Origin: Candidatus Firestoneibacteriota bacterium
GTDB taxonomy: Bacteria; Oederibacteriota; D2-FULL-39-29
Direction: 5' to 3'
DNA: 64,000 nt
Assembly (NCBI GenBank): GCA_903928075.1
Contig: CAIYPD010000076.1
Location: 10,292-74,291, forward strand
The translations under genes and the position numbers were made by a program. Position 1 is the first letter of the stretch; every line of letters starts with the position of its first letter. The notes beneath the pieces were generated by a model. It had not been told where the DNA came from. It ran no database searches and saw nothing but the letters and a program-made list of their open reading frames with translations. This document shows, one piece after another, positions 622-48,376 of the stretch.

Positions 622-2043
622 TTACAATAGACTTTTCAAAACCTTCCAGCGTCCACTTTTCGTCGGTCCAACATGTTTCACTATTCCTTCTTTTTGAAGT
701 TTTCTAAGATAATGGATAATAGAACTTTCCGTCATTCTGGTTTCCCGTGAAATCTGCTTTCTGGTTATTTCTGAATTCATTCTTATAGCATCAATTATTA
801 TTTGTACATTTCCTTTGTGTTTCTTGTGCGTTTCCTGTGTGTTTCTTGTGCGTTTCTTGTGCGTCTTCTGAATACCATTCCCAAAAGAATTATCCATATT
901 TCTATTTACCATTCTGTAAAACACCACCATGAATCCCGTTTTAAGTATTTTGAAGTCTACCTTAACTCCAGCTTCTTTGCACAAGCTATAAATCTTTTTC
1001 AAACCAGAACCCCATTTCTCGACTTCTCTGGACTTATACAAAATATCCGCTATAAGCGGATTTCTTAAAACGGATTGTTCTTCCTTTTTAATATAGTCCT
1101 GCGGAGTTAGCCCTTCGGGAAAATCTCCCGGATTCCAGATCTCTATACGGTTCTTAAATATTGCTATCTTATTACTTTCAGGTGCAAGGTAGTCCCTATG
1201 GCATAAAGAATTAACAAGTACTTCTCTAATAGCATCTACCGGAACCTCCGGGATTTCCTGCCGTTCAAGTCCAACAGTTTTCGCACGCCAATTCATTTTT
1301 TCTTTTATGTAATCCTCTGATTTTTTAAGAAGGTTGAAAATGTTGTCTTTGTATTGATTAATATCAAGGAATGTTATCTTGTCAACGCCGGCAAATACTG
1401 CGACTTGAACCTCCAGAGAATTGTTCTTGCAAAAGAGCACTTGCGCCGCATTTGAAAGTTTACTATTTTTTATCAGTCCTAGCTTTTTCAATACATTCGG
1501 GACATTGTCATACTTAAAGCTTATTCTGCCAGCAAGATTTGCTCTCTTGACATAGTCCTTTACTGTTCCAGTGTTAATATCCTTAAAAGAGCTATTGGAA
1601 ATTTGGACTTCCCATTTAAATTTATCGGCACTCTTTTTTATAATTACCTTTCTCATCTCGTTTGCGCTCAGTTGCTTATCTTCATCCGCAACTCTAATAT
1701 AAACGCGGCCATAAGCATGATATGGAATATCTTCGCCTTGAAACTCAATCTTTATACAGGATTTACCTTTAATCTTAACTGTATCTATTGAAGGATATAT
1801 CTTTGGTTCTATATGATCAGAAATTGCCCGAGAAATATCCCGTAAAGTTGAAGACCCGATCACCTGCCCTATAACTTCACCGTCATTTCTAACACCAAAA
1901 AATAGTTCACCTTTCTTATGCTTATTCAAAATGGAAGAAATGGAAATAACAGCTTCTTTAAGTTCAGAAGTTGATTTTTTAAATTCCAATACTTCAGATT
2001 CTTTCAATTCCATATCCGCCCCTGTTTGCATTATTACTATCAA
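622..2043 (-). CDS. AlbA_2 (Schlafen-like divergent AAA) + HATPase_c_4 + C-terminal winged-HTH protein; 'RecG C-terminal-like putative transcriptional regulator' family
   Basis: N-terminal ELKESEVLEFKKS...GELFFGVRNDGEVIG is the AlbA_2/Schlafen core. C-terminal ITRKQISRETRMTESSIIHYLRKLQKEGIV is a wHTH. Internal 11-bp tandem DNA repeat (TTGTGCGTTTC x4, about 805-875) encodes a THKK(H/R) low-complexity linker. Confidence 0.7.
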   Translation of the reverse strand: MIVIMQTGADMELKESEVLEFKKSTSELKEAVISISSILNKHKKGELFFGVRNDGEVIGQVIGSSTLRDISRAISDHIEPKIYPSIDTVKIKGKSCIKIEFQGEDIPYHAYGRVYIRVADEDKQLSANEMRKVIIKKSADKFKWEVQISNSSFKDINTGTVKDYVKRANLAGRISFKYDNVPNVLKKLGLIKNSKLSNAAQVLFCKNNSLEVQVAVFAGVDKITFLDINQYKDNIFNLLKKSEDYIKEKMNWRAKTVGLERQEIPEVPVDAIREVLVNSLCHRDYLAPESNKIAIFKNRIEIWNPGDFPEGLTPQDYIKKEEQSVLRNPLIADILYKSREVEKWGSGLKKIYSLCKEAGVKVDFKILKTGFMVVFYRMVNRNMDNSFGNGIQKTHKKRTRNTQETHKKHKGNVQIIIDAIRMNSEITRKQISRETRMTESSIIHYLRKLQKEGIVKHVGPTKSGRWKVLKSLL

Positions 2044-17037: not shown

Positions 17038-17289
17038 TACCCCGGGAGAAGGTATGGATGAGGGTAATGGTTTTCTAATCTCCATAAGAGTCGTAAAGGT
17101 CTATAAATGAAAACAATATATTTCAACGATTTTAGACCTTAAGAACCTTAAGAACCTTAAAAACTTTATAAACTTCTTTTTCCCTCTTTCCCCAATTGTA
17201 TCTATTTGGCCAGCCAATTGCAAGAATTTTACCTGACGGTTCACTTAAGAAATCCTGAATCAGGATAAACTTGATTTTAATAAAGCATA

Positions 17290-32988: not shown

Positions 32989-33028
32989 GTCTGTAAAAGT
33001 CCGTAAAGGTCCATAATGTCTATAAAAG
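32989..33028 (+). repeat. tandem decamer array GTCYRTAAAG x4 (inverted partner of 33421-33500)
   Basis: GTCTGTAAAA GTCCGTAAAG GTCCATAAT GTCTATAAAAG read directly. Ends 7 bp before the stop of the four-helix-bundle gene. Confidence 0.8.
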
Positions 33029-33034
33029 ACCTTT

Positions 33035-33403
33035 CTATTCCTTGTGCTCTCTAAGGTATTTAATTAAATTGCTTATCATACTGCTTGTCTTTTCACATTT
33101 AGAGCGCGTGTTTTTATACAAAGTTTCGTTAACATAACTCTGATCAAGAGCAATATCCATTTGTGCTCTAAGCTCCCCGCAGGAACCTTTTGCTATAAAA
33201 AGGAACTGAGCAAACTCTTTATCTCCTTTTCTCTCAAATCCTTCCGCAATATTAGACATGATTGACACAGCGGACTTTCTAATTTGATTGATAAGGTAAA
33301 AATCATTTTGAAAACCCGATGATTTTGTAATCCCATAAATATCGTGTGTCAACTCCCGAGCTTGCTTGTAAATATTCAAATCCTCAAATCTCTTTGCTTT
33401 CAT
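33035..33403 (-). CDS. four-helix-bundle protein (23S rRNA IVS protein / Avd-like family)
   Basis: 122 aa. DLNIYKQARELTHDIY...FQNDFYLINQIRKSAVSIMSNIAEG...AKGSCGELRAQMDIA matches the TIGR02436/PF05635 pattern. Confidence 0.7.
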   Translation of the reverse strand: MKAKRFEDLNIYKQARELTHDIYGITKSSGFQNDFYLINQIRKSAVSIMSNIAEGFERKGDKEFAQFLFIAKGSCGELRAQMDIALDQSYVNETLYKNTRSKCEKTSSMISNLIKYLREHKE

Positions 33404-33420
33404 TCTCCCCTGTCTCCCCT

Positions 33421-33500
33421 TGTAGACTTTCCCCTTTACAAACCTTTACAGACCTTTACGGACTTTTACAGACCTTTGTAGACCTTTACGGACCTGTATT
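33421..33500 (-). repeat. tandem decamer array (CTTTACAGAC-like) x7
   Basis: CTTTACAAAC CTTTACAGAC CTTTACGGAC TTTTACAGAC CTTTGTAGAC CTTTACGGAC read directly. Begins 18 bp upstream of the four-helix-bundle start. Confidence 0.8.
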
Positions 33501-33503
33501 TAT

Positions 33504-34577
33504 CTACTTTTTCTTTTCCAAATCCTGGAGCATGAGTTTTCTGAAACCCTCGGGATTATGCGCCTTCGTAAGCGCCGCTTCAAAAGTTACGGTCTCTGCG
33601 TTAACCAGGTCTTTCAGCGCAACATCAAGCGTTTGCATTCCCTCTGATTTTCCGGTAAGCATGGTAGAAGGTATCTGCGCAAGCTGATTTTCCCGTATCA
33701 TATTTCTTATGGCGTGGTTGGCCACAAGTATTTCCAGCGCGACAGCCCGGCCTTTGTTATCAGCTTTCGGCAAAAGCACCTGGCAGACAATTCCTTCCAG
33801 GGTCAAAGAGAGCTGGCTTCTTATCTGCTGCTGCTGTGCCGGCGGAAAAACATCCACAATTCTGTCTATGGTCTGGGAAACGGAACCGGTGTGAAGAGTT
33901 GCAAAAACCAGATGGCCTGTTTCCGCGGCTGTAATCGCAGTAGCAATAGTTTCCAGATCGCGAATTTCACCTATTACTATTACATTGGGATCCTGTCTCA
34001 GCACTCTTTTAAGCGCATTATTGAAAGACAGAGTGTCCCTTCCGACCTCACGCTGATCCACTATCGCTTTTTTATCAGTGTGAATGAATTCCACAGGGTC
34101 CTCAATAGTAATGATATGACATCTTCTTGTCTGATTAATATGGTCTATCATTGCGGCAATTGTAGTTGATTTTCCGGAGCCGGTAGGGCCGGTAACGAGC
34201 ACCAGACCGCGCGGCCTGTCCGCTAATTTTTTTAAAACCTGCGGAAGCCCCAGCTCATCAATTGTCATTATTTTTAAAGGTATTACTCTGATTACACTCG
34301 CCAGGTTTCCTGTCTGTAGATAAACATTGACCCGGAACCGGGCCAGTTCAGGAACGGCATAGGCAAAATCAAGCTCCCTTTCCTCGTCAAATTTCTGCTT
34401 TAGCGCATCATCGGTCATCTGATTGATAAGATCCCTGACCTCCTGTAAAGTTAAGACCGGATACGACGAATCCACATAGACGCCGTCAATTCTAAAAGTC
34501 GGAGGGTGGCCTGCTTTTAAGTGCAGATCGGAGGCATTTTTCTTGACCATCTCTTTCAGAAAATCATTTATTTTCAT
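33504..34577 (-). CDS. pilT: type IV pilus retraction ATPase PilT
   Basis: 357 aa. Walker A GPTGSGKSTT. HIITIEDPVEF. Asp and His boxes. Confidence 0.9.
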   Translation of the reverse strand: MKINDFLKEMVKKNASDLHLKAGHPPTFRIDGVYVDSSYPVLTLQEVRDLINQMTDDALKQKFDEERELDFAYAVPELARFRVNVYLQTGNLASVIRVIPLKIMTIDELGLPQVLKKLADRPRGLVLVTGPTGSGKSTTIAAMIDHINQTRRCHIITIEDPVEFIHTDKKAIVDQREVGRDTLSFNNALKRVLRQDPNVIVIGEIRDLETIATAITAAETGHLVFATLHTGSVSQTIDRIVDVFPPAQQQQIRSQLSLTLEGIVCQVLLPKADNKGRAVALEILVANHAIRNMIRENQLAQIPSTMLTGKSEGMQTLDVALKDLVNAETVTFEAALTKAHNPEGFRKLMLQDLEKKK

Positions 34578-36841: not shown

Positions 36842-37375
36842 TTATTTCTTTTTCTTTGTTGTTGCTTTCTTCGCCGGGGTTACCGGTTTCTTAGGCTCAA
36901 CTTTCTTCTCAACAACTTTCGGGACATCTCCCGGCTTAATATCCGCCGGAATTTTACTGGCTATCGGAGTGAGGGTCCGGAGATAAGCGACAATGCTTTT
37001 CAAATCCTCTTCTGTAAGACTTCTATAGTAATCATAGTAAAGAGGAGCTTTACCGTTAATGCCTTCTTCTTTAATCATATTAATTACATCTTCATCGGTC
37101 ATCATACCTATACCGGTATCATTATCCGGTGTAAGATTTTTCGCATAGGATACGCCCCAGACCCCTTTATACCCGGTCTCACTTCCTGCCATAAATTTAT
37201 TTAGATCCGGCTTTCCGTCTTTTCCTATCGGGGTGTGGTGAGCAAGCACGCCGCAGGCATTGATAAGATATTTTCCGCGTTCAATCATTTCGTCCTTAGA
37301 AAGCTTCTTGGAACAAGCAACTCCAAGAAAAACCATACAGCAGACCATCGAGAACACTACAACTTTCTTTAACAT
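36842..37375 (-). CDS. lipoprotein with Lys/Pro-rich C-terminal tail, hypothetical
   Basis: Signal peptide plus lipobox LGVAC. C-terminal KKVEPKKPVTPAKKATTKKKK. Confidence 0.5.
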   Translation of the reverse strand: MLKKVVVFSMVCCMVFLGVACSKKLSKDEMIERGKYLINACGVLAHHTPIGKDGKPDLNKFMAGSETGYKGVWGVSYAKNLTPDNDTGIGMMTDEDVINMIKEEGINGKAPLYYDYYRSLTEEDLKSIVAYLRTLTPIASKIPADIKPGDVPKVVEKKVEPKKPVTPAKKATTKKKK

Positions 37376-37405
37376 TTTCTTTCCCTCCTATAGGAAATAC
37401 GATTT

Positions 37406-37434
37406 CACAGATTAATAAAAGAGATTCCACAGAT
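37406..37434 (-). promoter_or_regulatory. paired CACAGAT direct repeats (22-bp spacing) upstream of the lipoprotein gene
   Basis: GATTTCACAGAT ... AAAGAGATTCCACAGAT. Same architecture as at 39228-39255 and 41396-41425. Confidence 0.5.
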
Positions 37435-37470: not shown

Positions 37471-37520
37471 CTTTACAGACCTTTACAGACCTTTACGAAC
37501 ATTTGCAGACTTTTATAGAC
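37471..37520 (-). repeat. tandem decamer array x5 (CTTTACAGAC family)
   Basis: CTTTACAGAC CTTTACAGAC CTTTACGAAC ATTTGCAGAC TTTTATAGAC. Confidence 0.8.
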
Positions 37521-44515: not shown

Positions 44516-47500
44516 TCATTTGGAATTAGCGAGGGCGCTGAAGTAGGTTAGAACTTCGTTTAGTTTGTCTGAAGAGTTTGAGATTAACTTAAAGTAACCC
44601 CGGCCTGTGTTTTTCATCTCAAAATTAATACTGTTTTCTGACTCAAAAATAGAAGAGATGCCTGCTTTTTTTGCTACCAGGCGAATCTTCACAATTTGGA
44701 GCAGATTCTCGGCCTCGAAAGGCAGAGTTCCGAACCGGTCAATAAGTTCTTCTTTTATTTTATCCACCCCCGGCAGGTCCTCTACGGCCATCAAATCTTT
44801 ATAAATATTTATTTTTAAGAATCCGTCGCTGACATAAGAATCCGGCAGATAAGCATTTGTCTTAATGTCAATTTCTATTTTCTCTTCCGGTATTCCTTCT
44901 TCGATACCTTTTGCTGCGTTTACAGCTTCCTTTAGGAGTTTCATATAGAGTTCAAGTCCGACCCGGCCTATCTGCCCGTGCTGTTCCTTCCCGAGAATAT
45001 TACCGGCACCTCTTATTTCAAGATCCTTCATCGCTATCGAAAAGCCCATAGAGAGTTCATCGCATTCTTCTATCGCCGCCAGACGCCTCATGGCGACATC
45101 CGTAAGTGACCTGTCTTTAGGATAGGTTAAATACGCAAAAGCCTGCACCCGGCTGCGCCCTACCCGTCCCCTAAGCTGATATAATTGTGAAAGCCCGAGA
45201 TCATCGGCATCTTCTATTATTATCGTGTTTGCGGAAGGATTATCCAGGCCCGCTTCAATAATAGTAGAGCAAACCAAAACATTGTATTTCTTCTCATAAA
45301 AATCCATCATTATTTTTTCCAGCCGGGGCCCGGGAAGTTGACCGTGGGCTACCGCTACCCTGGCTTCGGGCACCAGACGCTGTAGTCTGCTCGCAGCTCT
45401 TTGTATGGTTTTTACTTTATTGTAAACATAGTAAACTTCCCCGCCCCGCGCCAGTTCCTTGTTTATGGCGCCCCTGATTATTTTTTCGTTATACTCTATA
45501 ACATAGGTTTGGATAGCCATTCTTCCGGAGGGGGGTGTATTTATATTGCTGATTTCCCTTATACCGGAGAGTGAAAGATAGAGGGTCCGGGGTATGGGCG
45601 TGGCAGACAAACTTATGCAATACACTGTTTTTCTGAGTTTTTTTAATTTCTCTTTTTGCCCTACGCCGAATTTCTGTTCGTCATCCAGGATAAGCATCCC
45701 CAGGTCCTTGAATACAATATCCTCCTGGAGCAGCCGGTGCGTGCCGACAACTATATCAACAGTGCCCGCCTTTAATTTTTCCAGGGTCTTTCCTTGCTCT
45801 TTTTTTGCGCTAAATCTTGAAAGCATCGCAATGCTTACGGGATACTCCGCCATGCGCTCCTTGAAAGTTTTATAATGCTGTTCGGCAAGTATGGTAGTCG
45901 GACAGACAAAGGCAACCTGTTTGCCTTCAAGCGCGCATTTAAAAGCCGCGCGCAGCGCCACTTCCGTCTTACCAAAACCCACATCCCCGCAAACAAGCCG
46001 GTCAATGGGCCTTCCCTGCTCCATATCTTCTTTTACCTCAGAAATTGCGCGCAGCTGATCTTTGGTCTCTTCGTAAATAAACGAGTCCTCAAATTCTTTC
46101 TGCCAGGTCGTATCCGGCGGAAAAGCGTGGCCTTTTAGAGTCTCTCTTGCCGCATAAAGAAGCAAAAGGTCATCCGCCATTTTTTTAACATCTTCTTTGA
46201 CTTTTTCTTTGGCTTTTTCCCACTGGGAAGTCCCGAGATTAGATAAAACCGGAGTTTCCTCAAAACCGACATACTTTTGTATTTTATTTATGTCTTCGAC
46301 CGGGATATAAAGTTTATCGCCGTTTAAATATTCCAAAGTTACAAAATCTTTCTTTGTGCCGGAAAGTTCCAGACTGCTTAGGCCTAAAAACCGGCCTATA
46401 CCATAATTTTCATGTACCACCGCTTCTCCGGTGTTTATCTCAAAAACGCTCTTTACGGGTGCTCCGTCTTTAAAAAACCTACGCCTCCTCTTTGTGGCCG
46501 GCCTCGAATTGCCGTAACGCCCGAATATTTCATTGTCGGTAACAACTAACACACCGGCCTCAACAAAGTGAAACCCGCCGTGCAGTTCTCCTGTCAGATA
46601 TTTTACCGAAAGAACTGCGTTATTCTCCGTCAATATTTCGGCGAATCTTTCCTGCTCGCCGTTACTATTAAACAATAAAAATACTGCGGTGCCTTCTGCC
46701 TCATTTTTTTGCAATTCTTTTATAGCCAGGCCCGCATTTCCGTTAAAAGAAGGGAAACTTTTGGTTTTAATATTTATGCCGTCTGTGCCCCTTTGATTCA
46801 GTATTACCGGAAAATCACTTATTTTTGGAATGGAAAATTCGTTGCTAAGGGGTTCTTCAACATAGATAATAGTATTTTCCAGGAGATATTCGGTGACTTT
46901 TCCTTTTTTAAAACTATCTTCGGAAGCAGGATAAATCTCAATTTCCTCAATTTCTTTAGTAGATTTCTGCGTAAGGAGGTCGAAAACCCTTATCGTATCA
47001 ATATTATCCCCAAAAAAATCTATTCTTACCGGGTGTTCTTCCGTCAGGGAATAAATGTCAAGAATACCTCCCCGGACAGAAATATCCCCTTTTCTTTCTA
47101 CAAAGGCCTCCATCTTGTATCCGGCAGTTATCAACTGTTCAACCAGTGAAAGCAGGTTTAGTTCTTTTTCTTTCTTCAATTTGAAGACCGCGGTGGAAAA
47201 TTCTTTTTTTGACGGGACAGGTTGCGTGAAGGATTGGCGAGAAAACACGGCTACTTTAATTTTTTTCTGCAGCAAATCCTTAAGGCCTGAAAGGCGTTGT
47301 TCCTTGAGTTCTTTTGAAGGCGGAAGCCTGACCCCTTCGAGTTCTTCTAAAGCCGGAAAAAGAAGCAAACCTTCATTAAAAAATACCTGCAGATCGTAGA
47401 AAGCCCTTAGAGCCGAATCGTTATCTGGCAGAATCAAAAGGAGAGGGCGGCCAGAATCATTAAATATTGAATAGGCCAGGAAGGAATCAGCAGAGCCTTT

Positions 47501-47623
47501 AATTCCGCTAATCTCAATAGTTCCGGTTTTTTTTATTTTCTTCAAGAGCTCGCAGTAAACCGGACTCTTTAGGAGAAGGTTATCGAGGTTTTGAATGTAC
47601 GAAGCAGGTCTATAAAGATCCAT
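44516..47623 (-). CDS. mfd: transcription-repair coupling factor
   Basis: 1035 aa. Superfamily-2 helicase motifs GDVGFGKTEVALRAAF, DDEQKFGV, TATPIPRTL. C-terminal TRCF domain. Confidence 0.9.
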   Translation of the reverse strand: MDLYRPASYIQNLDNLLLKSPVYCELLKKIKKTGTIEISGIKGSADSFLAYSIFNDSGRPLLLILPDNDSALRAFYDLQVFFNEGLLLFPALEELEGVRLPPSKELKEQRLSGLKDLLQKKIKVAVFSRQSFTQPVPSKKEFSTAVFKLKKEKELNLLSLVEQLITAGYKMEAFVERKGDISVRGGILDIYSLTEEHPVRIDFFGDNIDTIRVFDLLTQKSTKEIEEIEIYPASEDSFKKGKVTEYLLENTIIYVEEPLSNEFSIPKISDFPVILNQRGTDGINIKTKSFPSFNGNAGLAIKELQKNEAEGTAVFLLFNSNGEQERFAEILTENNAVLSVKYLTGELHGGFHFVEAGVLVVTDNEIFGRYGNSRPATKRRRRFFKDGAPVKSVFEINTGEAVVHENYGIGRFLGLSSLELSGTKKDFVTLEYLNGDKLYIPVEDINKIQKYVGFEETPVLSNLGTSQWEKAKEKVKEDVKKMADDLLLLYAARETLKGHAFPPDTTWQKEFEDSFIYEETKDQLRAISEVKEDMEQGRPIDRLVCGDVGFGKTEVALRAAFKCALEGKQVAFVCPTTILAEQHYKTFKERMAEYPVSIAMLSRFSAKKEQGKTLEKLKAGTVDIVVGTHRLLQEDIVFKDLGMLILDDEQKFGVGQKEKLKKLRKTVYCISLSATPIPRTLYLSLSGIREISNINTPPSGRMAIQTYVIEYNEKIIRGAINKELARGGEVYYVYNKVKTIQRAASRLQRLVPEARVAVAHGQLPGPRLEKIMMDFYEKKYNVLVCSTIIEAGLDNPSANTIIIEDADDLGLSQLYQLRGRVGRSRVQAFAYLTYPKDRSLTDVAMRRLAAIEECDELSMGFSIAMKDLEIRGAGNILGKEQHGQIGRVGLELYMKLLKEAVNAAKGIEEGIPEEKIEIDIKTNAYLPDSYVSDGFLKINIYKDLMAVEDLPGVDKIKEELIDRFGTLPFEAENLLQIVKIRLVAKKAGISSIFESENSINFEMKNTGRGYFKLISNSSDKLNEVLTYFSALANSK

Positions 47624-47647
47624 AAATTTCTATCAAAGTCCTTAAAA

Positions 47648-47656
47648 GTCTGTAAG
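47648..47656 (+). repeat. single inverted copy of the decamer (GTCTGTAAG), about 110 bp left of the 47768 array
   Basis: Read directly. Together with the array it brackets a 110-bp AT-rich segment. Confidence 0.5.
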
Positions 47657-47699
47657 CAGAATTTTTTCGATATGAAATACATCGTATAGACAACATCCG

Positions 47700-47727
47700 T
47701 TGACAAAACGAAACAATTATTTATAAT
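47700..47727 (+). promoter_or_regulatory. consensus sigma70-like promoter (TTGACA-N16-TATAAT) on the plus strand, pointing into the decamer array
   Basis: TTGACA at 47700-47705, 16-nt spacer, TATAAT at 47722-47727. No plus-strand gene downstream. Confidence 0.35.
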
Positions 47728-47767
47728 CAATTTTTTCAATTCAATTAATATATTTCCTAAGTACAAA

Positions 47768-47808
47768 CCTTTTAAAGACCATTACAGACCTTTAATGACT
47801 TTTACGGA
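47768..47808 (-). repeat. tandem decamer array x4 (CTTTACAGAC family)
   Basis: CTTTTAAAGAC CATTACAGAC CTTTAATGAC TTTTACGGAC. Confidence 0.75.
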
Positions 47809-47818
47809 CTTTTTTTAC

Positions 47819-48376
47819 TTAGAACTTTACCTTAACGGATTCTCTGTCTGCTTCGCTAATATTAAAGTATTCTTTTGCTTTAAAGTTAAAAAGCATAGCA
47901 ACAAGATTAGTCGGAAACATTTGAAGGGCATTAGAAAAACTCATAACCGTATCGTTATAAAACTGCCTGGCATAGGCAATCTTGCTCTCTATTCCGTCAA
48001 GTTGTTCCTGGAGCAAACGAAATTGCGAATCAGCTTTTAATTGAGGATAGTTCTCAGCCACAGCAAATAAACTCTTAAGCGCCTGGGTAAGGCCATTTTG
48101 AGCTTTTTGCATATCGGCCACCCCGGTTGCACCCATGATGGCGGAACGCGCTTTTGTTACATTTTCAAAAACGCTTTTTTCGTGCGCCGCGTAACCTTTG
48201 ACGGTTTCAACGAGATTAGGTACTAAATCGGCTCTTTTTTTCAGCTGGACATCTACTTGCGCCCAGCTATTCTCACAACGGTTGCGAAGGATCACCAGGC
48301 GGTTATACAAAGAGATTAGGAGAAGCACAATGAATGCTATTATCATTATGAAAAATATCTGAAGCGGTAGACTCAT
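47819..48376 (-). CDS. lemA: LemA family protein
   Basis: N-terminal TM then [43 protein letters not shown], the LemA signature. Confidence 0.85.

What the first reader, a model, noticed from the sequence alone, without database searches (positions are those of the whole stretch)
47648..47808. Decamer array plus inverted single copy enclosing a consensus TTGACA-N16-TATAAT promoter upstream of mfd
The same decamer family (also at 37471-37520 upstream of a lipoprotein gene) appears here as four tandem copies. A single inverted copy lies 110 bp away. Between them is a textbook sigma70 promoter on the plus strand, reading toward the array and antisense to lemA, with no plus-strand ORF. This could be a small RNA containing the repeats, or the repeats could be binding sites modulating the divergent mfd promoter.
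Basis: seen in the sequence. Interest (0 to 1): 0.5.

Follow-up and report, generated by a model that had tools for sequence, protein, structure and literature searches.

The report
Hairpin repeat element inserted before mfd
The spacer between lemA and mfd in this uncultured Firestonebacteria genome is an inserted, gene-less copy of a dispersed element made of two opposed arrays of a 10-base repeat, the same arrays that bracket a small "four-helix-bundle" (23S rRNA intervening-sequence) gene elsewhere in the genome, which points to a widespread but little-studied pairing of that gene family with short tandem repeats.

Summary
There are four phased decamers at 47770-47809. The "single inverted copy" is in fact about five phased copies (47608-47657) that run over the mfd ATG. 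TTGACA-N16-TATAAT (47700-47727, +) is a perfect match that AT-richness does not explain.

The reading of the locus is partly wrong. lemA and mfd are co-directional members of one conserved operon, not divergent genes. In three Firestonebacteria relatives lemA's stop and mfd's ATG abut (TAAATG). A closer relative has a 136-bp version of the same element without the promoter. The 195-bp spacer is therefore an insertion.

The same arrays flank a PF05635 (23S rRNA IVS protein) gene at 33035-33403, here and in four relatives. A solitary array (37471-37520) and a degenerate pair (about 17081-17173) also occur.

My best reading is an ORF-less, hairpin-forming member of an IVS/REPIN-like repeat family, whose 3' arm now supplies the mfd start codon. 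The RNA-level mechanism (a folded-out stem, possibly cut by RNase III) is inferred. A test for strand bias in arm pairing gave no support for it.

In passing: PF05635 genes in cyanobacterial and Riemerella plasmids are likewise bracketed by complementary arrays of 7-8-nt repeats, with a different unit in each lineage.

The parts
47760..47813 (-). 5' arm in operon sense: GTCCGTAAAA GTCATTAAAG GTCTGTAATG GTCTTTAAAA, plus a degenerate fifth copy GGTTTGTAC. It begins 6 nt after the lemA stop codon (47821-47819).
47608..47657 (-). 3' arm in operon sense: GCTTACAGAC TTTTAAGGAC TTTGATAGAA ATTTATGGAT CTTTATAGAC. It contains the mfd ATG (47623-47621) and encodes the first residues of a 9-aa N-terminal extension, MDLYRPASY.
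47658..47759 (.). AT-rich loop (24% GC). It carries the motif GAAATATATTA (minus strand, 47756->47746), which is shared with the L130 element and with the element near 17.1 kb.
47672..47728 (.). Lineage-specific ~57-nt segment inside the loop. It is bounded by the 12-nt direct repeat AATTTTTTCGAT / AATTTTTTCAAT (47660-47671, 47729-47740) and is absent from relative L130.
47700..47727 (+). Perfect sigma-70-type match TTGACA-N16-TATAAT, reading toward the 47760-47813 array and antisense to lemA.
47819..48376 (-). lemA (PF04011), the upstream cistron.
44516..47623 (-). mfd (transcription-repair coupling factor), the downstream cistron. The conserved N-terminus IQNLDNLLL aligns with L130's MQNLDKLLL, so the window's ATG lies upstream, inside the repeat arm.
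33035..33403 (-). 122-aa PF05635 / TIGR02436 four-helix-bundle (23S rRNA IVS protein) gene, bracketed by the same decamer arrays.
33418..33493 (-). Array of 6-7 decamers upstream of the IVP gene (5' arm in sense), starting 10 nt after the stop codon of the pilT-like gene.
32989..33027 (-). Array of 4 decamers downstream of the IVP gene (3' arm in sense), 23 nt upstream of the pfk ATG. The arms are 93% complementary over 28 nt.
37471..37520 (-). Solitary array of 5 decamers directly after the stop codon of the nth-like gene. It is absent at the orthologous site in relative L137.
17081..17173 (.). Probable degenerate fourth copy. The left arm is TCCATAAGA GTCGTAAAG GTCTATAAATG. The loop holds GAAATATATTG on the minus strand. 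The right arm is an array of 9-mers, (CTTAAGAAC)n. Predicted pairing is weak (z -1.75).

Best explanation
The 195-bp lemA-mfd spacer is an inserted, ORF-less copy of a dispersed Firestonebacteria repeat element. The element consists of two opposed arrays of a ~10-nt unit, (GTCYRTAAAR)n ... (YTTTAYRGAC)n, around an AT-rich loop. It is the gene-less counterpart of the cassette in which the same arrays bracket a PF05635 four-helix-bundle ('23S rRNA intervening sequence protein', IVP) gene.

Shown:
(a) The spacer is absent (TAAATG junction) in three relatives and present in decayed form in a closer one.
(b) The same arrays flank the IVP gene here and in four relatives.
(c) The arms can pair into a long imperfect stem.
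(d) The mfd ATG and the first codons lie inside the 3' arm.

Inferred:
- The element spread as a selfish insertion. It is tolerated inside an operon because it folds out of the lemA-mfd transcript as a hairpin, as IVS elements do in 23S rRNA.
- The stem brings the lemA stop and the mfd start together, buries the mfd initiation region, and is a plausible RNase III substrate. It would then uncouple or tune mfd expression relative to lemA.
- The perfect sigma-70 match sits in a later ~57-nt addition to the loop. If active, it would give an antisense transcript across the array and lemA. I treat it as secondary, not as the core of the element.
For: Insertion:
- The operon M48 peptidase / 271 aa / lemA / mfd is conserved.
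- L132, L134 and L136 (Mfd 70% identical) have a 0-bp spacer...TTCTAAATGGAT....
- L130/L137 (Mfd 79%) has a 136-bp spacer with decayed arms, a ~45-nt loop, and its ATG just after the arm.

A family, not a local oddity:
- The decamers form arrays at 4 loci in the window.
- In other Firestonebacteria MAGs they form opposed pairs, always in the order (GTCTGTAAAG)n..(CTTTACAGAC)n: L006 with about 9 + 19 copies, L008, L044, and the ORF-less hairpin in L142.
- A loop motif, GAAATATATTG (<=1 mismatch), occurs in the finding, in L130 and in the 17.1-kb copy, against 10 hits in 128 kb of background.
- The array at 37471-37520 is missing at the orthologous site of L137.

Link to IVP:
- The arrays bracket the PF05635 gene in the window (arms 93% complementary) and in L140, L142, L144 and L145.
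- Of 50 window genes, only the IVP gene has complementary flanks (z -9.4; next best -2.4).

Hairpin:
- The sense RNA folds at -49.7 kcal/mol, z -2.6.
- The mfd initiation region has a mean unpaired probability of 0.28.

Precedent:
- The Coxiella 23S IVS is a selfish element carrying an S23p ORF. RNase III cuts its stem, and it has tandem heptamers (GACAGAT x2-3, copy number variable between strains) next to the ORF (PMC4990558).
Against: - No transcript, RNase III or protein-binding data exist for this uncultured lineage.
- The test for RNA-level selection failed. Across ten arm pairs, the sense-strand duplex is more stable in four, the antisense in four, and the two are about equal in one; the tenth pair lies between divergent genes and cannot be scored. 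G-U pairing therefore does not consistently favour the mRNA strand.
- In L130 the mfd ATG lies outside the stem, so burial of the start codon is not conserved.
- No target-site duplication could be identified, and no mobilising enzyme is known. No transposase gene was found among the roughly 20 window ORFs scanned, which cover the array-flanking genes and some others; the rest of the window was not scanned.
- The loop shows no remnant of an IVP ORF, so derivation from the ORF-bearing form by deletion is not shown.
- The perfect promoter is statistically exceptional, and this explanation treats it as incidental.
Confidence: 0.6

Rival explanations
1. The decamer arrays are arrays of protein-binding sites on DNA. 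Candidates are direct-repeat sites of an OmpR/PhoB-type response regulator, or sites for the IVP protein itself. The two opposed arrays would control transcription into mfd, perhaps by looping.
For: - The 10-bp register is exact, one helical turn, with no indels across 4-6 copies.
- Read in sense, the array is GTAAA-N5-GTAAA. From my own knowledge this equals the published CpxR-box consensus, and OmpR sites are also phased 10-mers.
- Solitary arrays exist upstream of genes (37471-37520; L017, L024).
- Each IVP lineage has its own flanking repeat unit. Specific recognition by the encoded protein would predict exactly that.
Against: - The arrays are present or absent between close relatives at otherwise conserved sites.
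- Copy number reaches about 19 (L006).
- The arrays start 0-10 nt after stop codons inside operons, not at fixed distances from promoters.
- No regulator gene lies nearby.
- In relatives the units decay to 7-9-mers with indels, which breaks the helical phasing.
Confidence: 0.15
2. One reading: the TTGACA-N16-TATAAT promoter drives a plus-strand small or antisense RNA. That RNA carries the four decamers and acts on lemA, on other array-bearing transcripts, or on both.
For: - The match is 12/12 with a 16-nt spacer, and none arose in 100 simulated windows. P is about 0.001 in shuffles of the loop.
- The transcript would be complementary to every sense-strand (GTCYRTAAAR)n arm in the genome.
Against: - The promoter is absent from the orthologous element in L130.
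- It lies in a ~57-nt segment bounded by a 12-nt direct repeat, which suggests a secondary insertion.
- There is no terminator, no significant fold and no Rfam hit.
- No similar sequence exists in any other element fetched.
- The other 11/12 matches in the window mostly lie inside genes.
Confidence: 0.15
3. There is no element at all. The arrays arose independently at each locus by replication slippage of AT-rich spacer DNA and are neutral.
For: - Copy number and unit length drift between relatives, from 10-mers to 9-, 7- and 16-nt units.
- Tandem repeats are slippage-prone in general.
Against: - The same unit recurs at 4 loci in 64 kb and in several Firestonebacteria MAGs, always in the same relative order when paired.
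- A loop motif is shared between copies.
- The ancestral lemA|mfd junction had no spacer from which slippage could start.
Confidence: 0.07

Closest known systems
23S rRNA intervening sequences (IVS) of Coxiella, Leptospira, Salmonella and others
   Same: A stem formed by terminal inverted repeats encloses either nothing (short IVS) or a PF05635 / S23p ORF. The Coxiella IVS has tandem short repeats next to that ORF. It is regarded as a selfish, horizontally acquired insertion that is tolerated because it folds out and is cut by RNase III (PMC4990558).
   Different: This element lies between protein-coding cistrons of an operon, not in helix 25 or 45 of 23S rRNA. Its arms are built wholly of 10-nt tandem units. 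Excision by RNase III is untested here.
REP / REPIN elements with their RAYT genes
   Same: The genomic architecture matches: a small gene flanked by opposed copies of a repeat, gene-less opposed doublets that form hairpins (here, the finding), and singlets (here, 37471-37520). All sit just after stop codons in intergenic spacers. Each gene lineage has its own repeat sequence.
   Different: The associated gene is a four-helix bundle with no known nuclease or transposase activity, not a Y1 transposase. The repeats are tandem arrays, not a single 20-40-nt palindrome.
Intergenic heptamer arrays: cyanobacterial STRR, Xanthomonas GGGAATC (70-75 convergent pairs), Beggiatoaceae TAACTGA
   Same: These are tandem 7-nt units in intergenic spacers, including spacers inside operons, occurring singly or as convergent inverted pairs. 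Lengths differ between species. Their function is unknown (PMC4692102, PMC4679880).
   Different: The unit here is 10 nt, AT-rich and unable to form a G-quadruplex. Those papers do not link the arrays to PF05635 genes, whereas here the link is direct.
Correia elements (CREE) and other bacterial MITEs
   Same: They are small (100-200 bp), have no ORF, carry inverted ends and are dispersed. Presence or absence varies between relatives. They can carry sigma-70 promoters, and their transcripts form RNase III-sensitive hairpins (my own knowledge).
   Different: No TA or other target duplication is recognisable here. The ends are tandem arrays. No cognate transposase is known.
CpxR / OmpR-type direct-repeat operator arrays
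   Same: GTAAA-N5-GTAAA periodicity of 10 bp, in tandem.
   Different: The copy number is too high and variable, the arrays are mobile between loci, and no regulator gene is linked to them.

Membership tests
23S rRNA IVS | Inserted in a 23S rRNA helix (25 or 45) | tested here: not met
   The element lies between lemA and mfd. The window contains no rRNA or other Rfam family.
23S rRNA IVS | Terminal inverted repeats that form a stem enclosing the insert | tested here: met
   The arms are 32 nt and 78% complementary. The sense fold is -49.7 kcal/mol, z -2.6.
23S rRNA IVS | ORF-bearing forms encode a PF05635 / S23p protein | tested here: met
   This holds for the sister cassette at 33035-33403 (PF05635, E 2e-34). 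The finding itself has no ORF and no remnant of one.
23S rRNA IVS | Excised from the transcript by RNase III | not testable with these tools
   Needs RNA end mapping or an in-vitro RNase III assay.
MITE | Short, non-coding, with terminal inverted repeats | tested here: met
   About 200 bp, no credible ORF, opposed arrays.
MITE | Multiple dispersed copies in the genome | tested here: met
   Four loci in 64 kb, plus several loci in other Firestonebacteria MAGs. A whole-genome count was not possible.
MITE | Empty sites in related genomes | tested here: met
   A TAAATG junction in L132, L134 and L136. No array after nth in L137.
MITE | Target-site duplication and a cognate transposase | tested here: inconclusive
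   A possible TTCTAA-like duplication is blurred by divergence. No transposase was seen near any copy.
REPIN-RAYT system | The associated gene is a Y1 (IS200/IS605-like) transposase | tested here: not met
   The associated gene is PF05635 / TIGR02436.
REPIN-RAYT system | The gene is flanked by opposed repeats, and gene-less doublets and singlets occur elsewhere | tested here: met
STRR-type / inverted short-tandem-repeat pairs | Intergenic tandem arrays of a short unit, single or as convergent pairs | tested here: met
   The published features are in PMC4692102. The unit here is 10 nt, not 7.
OmpR/PhoB-type operator array (CpxR box) | Direct repeats at a 10-11-bp period matching a half-site consensus | tested here: met
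   GTAAA-N5-GTAAA is visible in the sequence. The consensus is recalled from memory, not tested.
OmpR/PhoB-type operator array (CpxR box) | Fixed position relative to a regulated promoter, conserved among relatives | tested here: not met
   Present or absent between relatives, and placed directly after stop codons.
Sigma-70 promoter driving an sRNA | -35/-10 hexamers with a 16-18-nt spacer | tested here: met
   12/12 match.
Sigma-70 promoter driving an sRNA | A defined transcript with terminator or structure, conserved in relatives | tested here: not met
   No terminator, z -1.1, absent in L130, no Rfam hit.

The most novel reading that the evidence does not exclude
PF05635 four-helix-bundle (IVP / S23p / Avd-like) proteins and the short tandem-repeat arrays that bracket their genes form one system, analogous to RAYT with REPINs. 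Each pentameric IVP would recognise its own repeat unit, possibly about one unit per subunit on single-stranded nucleic acid, as the TRAP protein binds tandem triplets. Gene-less opposed arrays such as the lemA-mfd element, and solitary arrays, would be non-autonomous copies or trans-acting targets. This would give both a function to a very large orphan protein family and an origin to the STRR-type intergenic repeats known since about 1990.
Probability: 0.2. Interest if true: 0.8.

Novelty: new variant of a known kind. Interest (0 to 1): 0.55.

Why it matters
Locally, the finding shows how a selfish palindromic insertion can split a translationally coupled gene pair (TAAATG) and then be partly domesticated. 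The repeat arm now supplies the mfd start codon and a 9-residue N-terminal extension.

More broadly, the finding led to a pattern seen in every independent lineage but one that I could sample. PF05635 genes, a very large family of unknown function outside diversity-generating retroelements (DGRs), sit inside hairpins built from lineage-specific short tandem repeats. Gene-less versions of the same hairpins are scattered through the genome.

If this holds genome-wide, it connects three poorly understood things: 23S rRNA intervening sequences, cyanobacterial and Xanthomonas STRR-type repeats, and the IVP family. It also makes their function testable by binding assays with IVP and its cognate repeat, by RNase III mapping, and by counting repeats in genomes with and without the matching IVP gene.

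Tried and rejected
1. Strand-asymmetry (G-U) test for RNA-level selection on arm pairing. It looked promising for the finding (sense -36.2 vs antisense -22.3 kcal/mol) and for two other loci. It vanished over ten arm pairs: sense better in 4, antisense better in 4, about equal in 1, and 1 between divergent genes that cannot be scored. Rejected as evidence.
2. Metagenome scan with LemA. It returned only distant lemA genes (<=65% identity), with no mfd downstream and no arrays.
3. Viral contigs. No decamer arrays and no IVP relative.
4. Looking for an IVP gene next to the arrays in the 46 genome loci. None was found apart from the pfk-linked cassette, so most arrays are gene-less.
5. A remnant of an IVP ORF in the loops. 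None was found.
6. Similarity of the finding's loop to any other fetched sequence. None was found beyond the 11-nt motif.
7. Literature search for the decamer sequences themselves. It returned only unrelated primers.
8. Rfam at gathering and at E<=1. Nothing relevant.
9. A search for a regulator or transposase gene among about 20 window ORFs, including all array-flanking genes. None was found.
10. A sense-strand promoter for mfd in the loop. Only 9/12 matches were found. TTTAAA-18-TATATT overlaps the conserved loop motif. This is suggestive only.

Full report
**What is in the sequence**

All genes around the finding lie on the minus strand. lemA (PF04011) occupies 48376->47819 and mfd occupies 47623->44516. 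The 195 bases between them hold three parts, read here in operon sense.
- A 5' arm starts 6 nt after the lemA stop: GTCCGTAAAA GTCATTAAAG GTCTGTAATG GTCTTTAAAA, then a degenerate GGTTTGTAC (47813->47760).
- A loop of about 100 nt with 24% GC follows.
- A 3' arm closes the element: GCTTACAGAC TTTTAAGGAC TTTGATAGAA ATTTATGGAT CTTTATAGAC (47657->47608).

Its 'single inverted copy' is really five copies in exact 10-bp register. The repeat finder reports 32-nt arms that are 78% complementary. The decamer family is far above chance: 13 hits at <=1 mismatch against 3.1 +/- 1.7 expected. TRF detects every array.

**The promoter-like site**

TTGACA-N16-TATAAT at 47700-47727 on the plus strand is a 12/12 match. 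No 12/12 site arose in 100 first-order Markov simulations of the window. It arose in 0.12% of shuffles of the loop itself. AT-richness therefore does not explain it.

The site points away from mfd, toward the 47760-47813 array and antisense to lemA. Several observations argue against it being the core of the feature.
- It sits in a 57-nt segment (47672-47728) bounded by a 12-nt direct repeat, AATTTTTTCGAT / AATTTTTTCAAT.
- The orthologous element of the nearest relative lacks that segment.
- The predicted transcript has no terminator, no significant fold (z -1.1) and no Rfam match.
- The 81-aa plus-strand ORF that starts in the array (47795-48040) has no ribosome-binding site and a low-complexity product.

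**Origin and comparative evidence**

The window's LemA is encoded by identical metagenome contigs, and their spacer is identical too. Mfd is 70-71% identical to proteins of named Candidatus Firestonebacteria MAGs.

The gene order M48 peptidase / 271-aa protein / lemA / mfd is conserved in all relatives fetched.
- In three relatives (L132, L134, L136) the lemA stop and the mfd start are adjacent...TTCTAAATGGAT....
- In the closest relative (L130/L137, Mfd 79% identical) there is a 136-bp spacer with the same anatomy in decayed form. The 5' arm is GTCAAAAGTCCATAAGGTCAAAGGTTTATAAGG. The loop is about 45 nt. The 3' arm is CCTTACAGAC TTTATGAAC TTTATAGAC, and the ATG follows it.

The spacer is therefore an insertion into a translationally coupled junction. 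It is older than the split between the window and L130.

The conserved Mfd N-terminus (L130 MQNLDKLLLAS, window IQNLDNLLLKS) shows that the window has lost the original ATG. It now starts 9 codons upstream, at an ATG inside the repeat arm. This adds MDLYRPASY.

**The same arrays elsewhere**

Four further sets of observations place the finding in a family.
1. At 32989-33027 and 33434-33493, opposed arrays with arms 93% complementary over 28 nt tightly bracket a 122-aa ORF. That ORF is a PF05635 / TIGR02436 four-helix-bundle '23S rRNA intervening sequence protein'. It lies between a pilT-like gene and pfk.
2. At 37471-37520, five copies follow the nth-like stop codon directly. The orthologous spacer in L137 has no array.
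3. Near 17081-17173 there is a degenerate pair with 9-nt units. Its loop carries GAAATATATTG. The same motif, at <=1 mismatch, sits at the same place in the finding's loop and in L130's. Background is 10 hits in 128 kb.
4. Other Firestonebacteria MAGs hold opposed pairs in the same relative order, with loops of 7-90 nt and up to about 19 copies per arm. They also hold solitary arrays.

The IVP-before-pfk cassette, with decamer arms, is conserved in L140, L142, L144 and L145.
- L142 additionally has an ORF-less hairpin just upstream of its IVP gene, with the same anatomy as the finding.
- In L145 the IVP gene is frameshifted and the arms have decayed.
- In L138, a close relative by PFK (91% identical), a different IVP (roughly 45% identical by eye) occupies the same site inside a different 36-nt inverted repeat built from ACGT-type short repeats.

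Among 50 genes of the window, only the IVP gene has complementary flanks (z -9.4; next best -2.4; median -0.15).

**A wider pattern, seen in passing**

I ran tblastn with the window IVP against plasmids and found homologues in Riemerella, Nostoc, Calothrix, Stanieria and Picosynechococcus. These genes sit between co-directional neighbours; one lies between cas10 and cmr3.

In seven of the eight loci fetched, the gene is bracketed by tandem arrays of a 7-8-nt unit upstream and its reverse complement downstream. The unit differs each time:
- GGTTTAA / TAAACCT
- GGGAAAA / TTTTCCC
- TCAGGAG / CTGACTC
- AGGGTGT / CTACACC
- AGGAGATA / ATCTCCTA
- AGGGAAC / CTGTTCC
- CAGAAGG-like / CCTTCTG

An IVP gene on an unrelated metagenome contig (L065) shows the same arrangement.

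The literature I could search describes parts of this picture separately.
- The Coxiella IVS carries its S23p ORF, an RNase III-cut stem and variable GACAGAT heptamers (PMC4990558).
- Xanthomonas has GGGAATC arrays, with 70-75 convergent pairs, and Nostoc has GGGGAYT arrays (PMC4692102).
- Beggiatoaceae have TAACTGA repeats (PMC4679880).

None of these papers connects such arrays to PF05635 genes in general. I cannot exclude that the link is described in papers outside this library.

**Mechanism**

What is shown: the spacer is an insertion, it belongs to a dispersed family, it is linked to IVP cassettes, its arms are complementary, and its 3' arm has captured the mfd start.

What is inferred: the element is tolerated because it folds out of the operon transcript as a long imperfect stem. 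The sense RNA folds at -49.7 kcal/mol with z -2.6. In a longer context it folds at -67.7 kcal/mol, and the mfd initiation region is mostly paired, with a mean unpaired probability of 0.28. The stem bases juxtapose the lemA stop and the mfd start. By analogy with IVS stems, the stem would be an RNase III substrate.

I tested whether arm mismatches are preferentially G-U-compatible on the mRNA strand. That holds for the finding, for the window's IVP cassette and for L006, but not overall: sense better in four pairs, antisense better in four, about equal in one, and one between divergent genes that cannot be scored. The data therefore do not separate an RNA-level role from a DNA-level role such as a cruciform or protein binding. 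As single-stranded DNA the element also folds better than shuffles (z -2.1).

**Rivals**

- Protein-binding arrays. This is supported by the exact helical period and the GTAAA-N5-GTAAA reading, and by the lineage-specific units, which would fit recognition by the IVP protein. It is weakened by the mobility of the arrays, their variable copy number, their decay by indels, and the absence of a linked regulator.
- A promoter-driven sRNA or antisense RNA. This is supported by the exceptional promoter match. It is weakened because the promoter is not conserved and no transcript features are present.
- Independent slippage at each locus. This is disfavoured by the shared unit, the shared arm order, the shared loop motif, and the 0-bp ancestral junction.

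**Verdict**

The feature is best filed as a new variant of known kinds of intergenic palindromic or tandem-repeat elements: IVS-like in form and REPIN-like in genomic architecture. Its local interest is moderate. The wider IVP-repeat association it exposed is the more interesting lead.

Noticed in passing
L146-L153 (plasmids of Riemerella, Nostoc, Calothrix, Stanieria, Picosynechococcus); L065:2065-2477; L138:3505-3992: PF05635 four-helix-bundle genes are bracketed by an upstream tandem array of a 7-8-nt unit and a downstream array of its reverse complement. The unit differs in each lineage, and the purine-rich arm is always on the 5' side in gene sense. L150, which sits next to an ISL3 transposase, is the only exception among the eight plasmid loci. 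Some 5' units contain SD-like AGGAG or GGGA.
   Followed up: partly
L004, L013, L014, L016, L038, L041, L048 and other Lentisphaerae / Victivallaceae / Thermoguttaceae / Prevotellaceae MAG loci: Near-identical decamer arrays, (TTTTACGGAC)n with up to 8 perfect copies, occur in unrelated phyla. Most are solitary and intergenic. Some are opposed pairs in the reverse order (L013, L041). Several are enclosed by a GC stem (GGCGGCAG ... TGCCGCC). Their relation to the Firestonebacteria family is unknown.
   Followed up: partly
window 37401-37434; L137:17677-17790: A direct repeat, GATTTCACAGAT / GATTCCACAGAT with 22-bp spacing, lies upstream of the 177-aa ORF 36842-37375. It is conserved as TCAGTGGAATC...ATCAGTGGAATCG in the relative, where the whole unit is duplicated. 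It is a likely operator or promoter element and is separate from the decamers.
   Followed up: no
window 33404-33504 compared with L138, L139 and L142: The window lacks the yjbQ gene (PF01894) that sits between pilT and IVP/pfk in relatives. L138 carries a different IVP type at the same site. The pilT-pfk spacer thus looks like a hotspot for cassette turnover.
   Followed up: partly
L145:1738-2105: In the relative with 94%-identical PFK, the IVP gene is frameshifted (81 aa called) and the flanking arrays have decayed to 9-mers. This hints that the arms are maintained only while the ORF is intact.
   Followed up: no
L152 (Picosynechococcus sp. PCC 7003 plasmid): An IVP gene with its repeat arms is inserted between cas10/cmr2 and cmr3 of a type III-B CRISPR operon.
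   Followed up: no
window 802-869: An 11-nt tandem repeat (GTTTCTTGTGC, about 4.5 copies; also period 22) lies inside the 473-aa ORF 622-2043 (minus strand). This period is not a multiple of three.
   Followed up: no
window 47757-47767 / 47812-47822: An 11-nt inverted repeat, CTAAGTACAAA / TTTTTACTTAG (91% complementary), encloses the 47770-47809 array alone and includes the lemA stop codon. It offers an alternative local hairpin.
   Followed up: no
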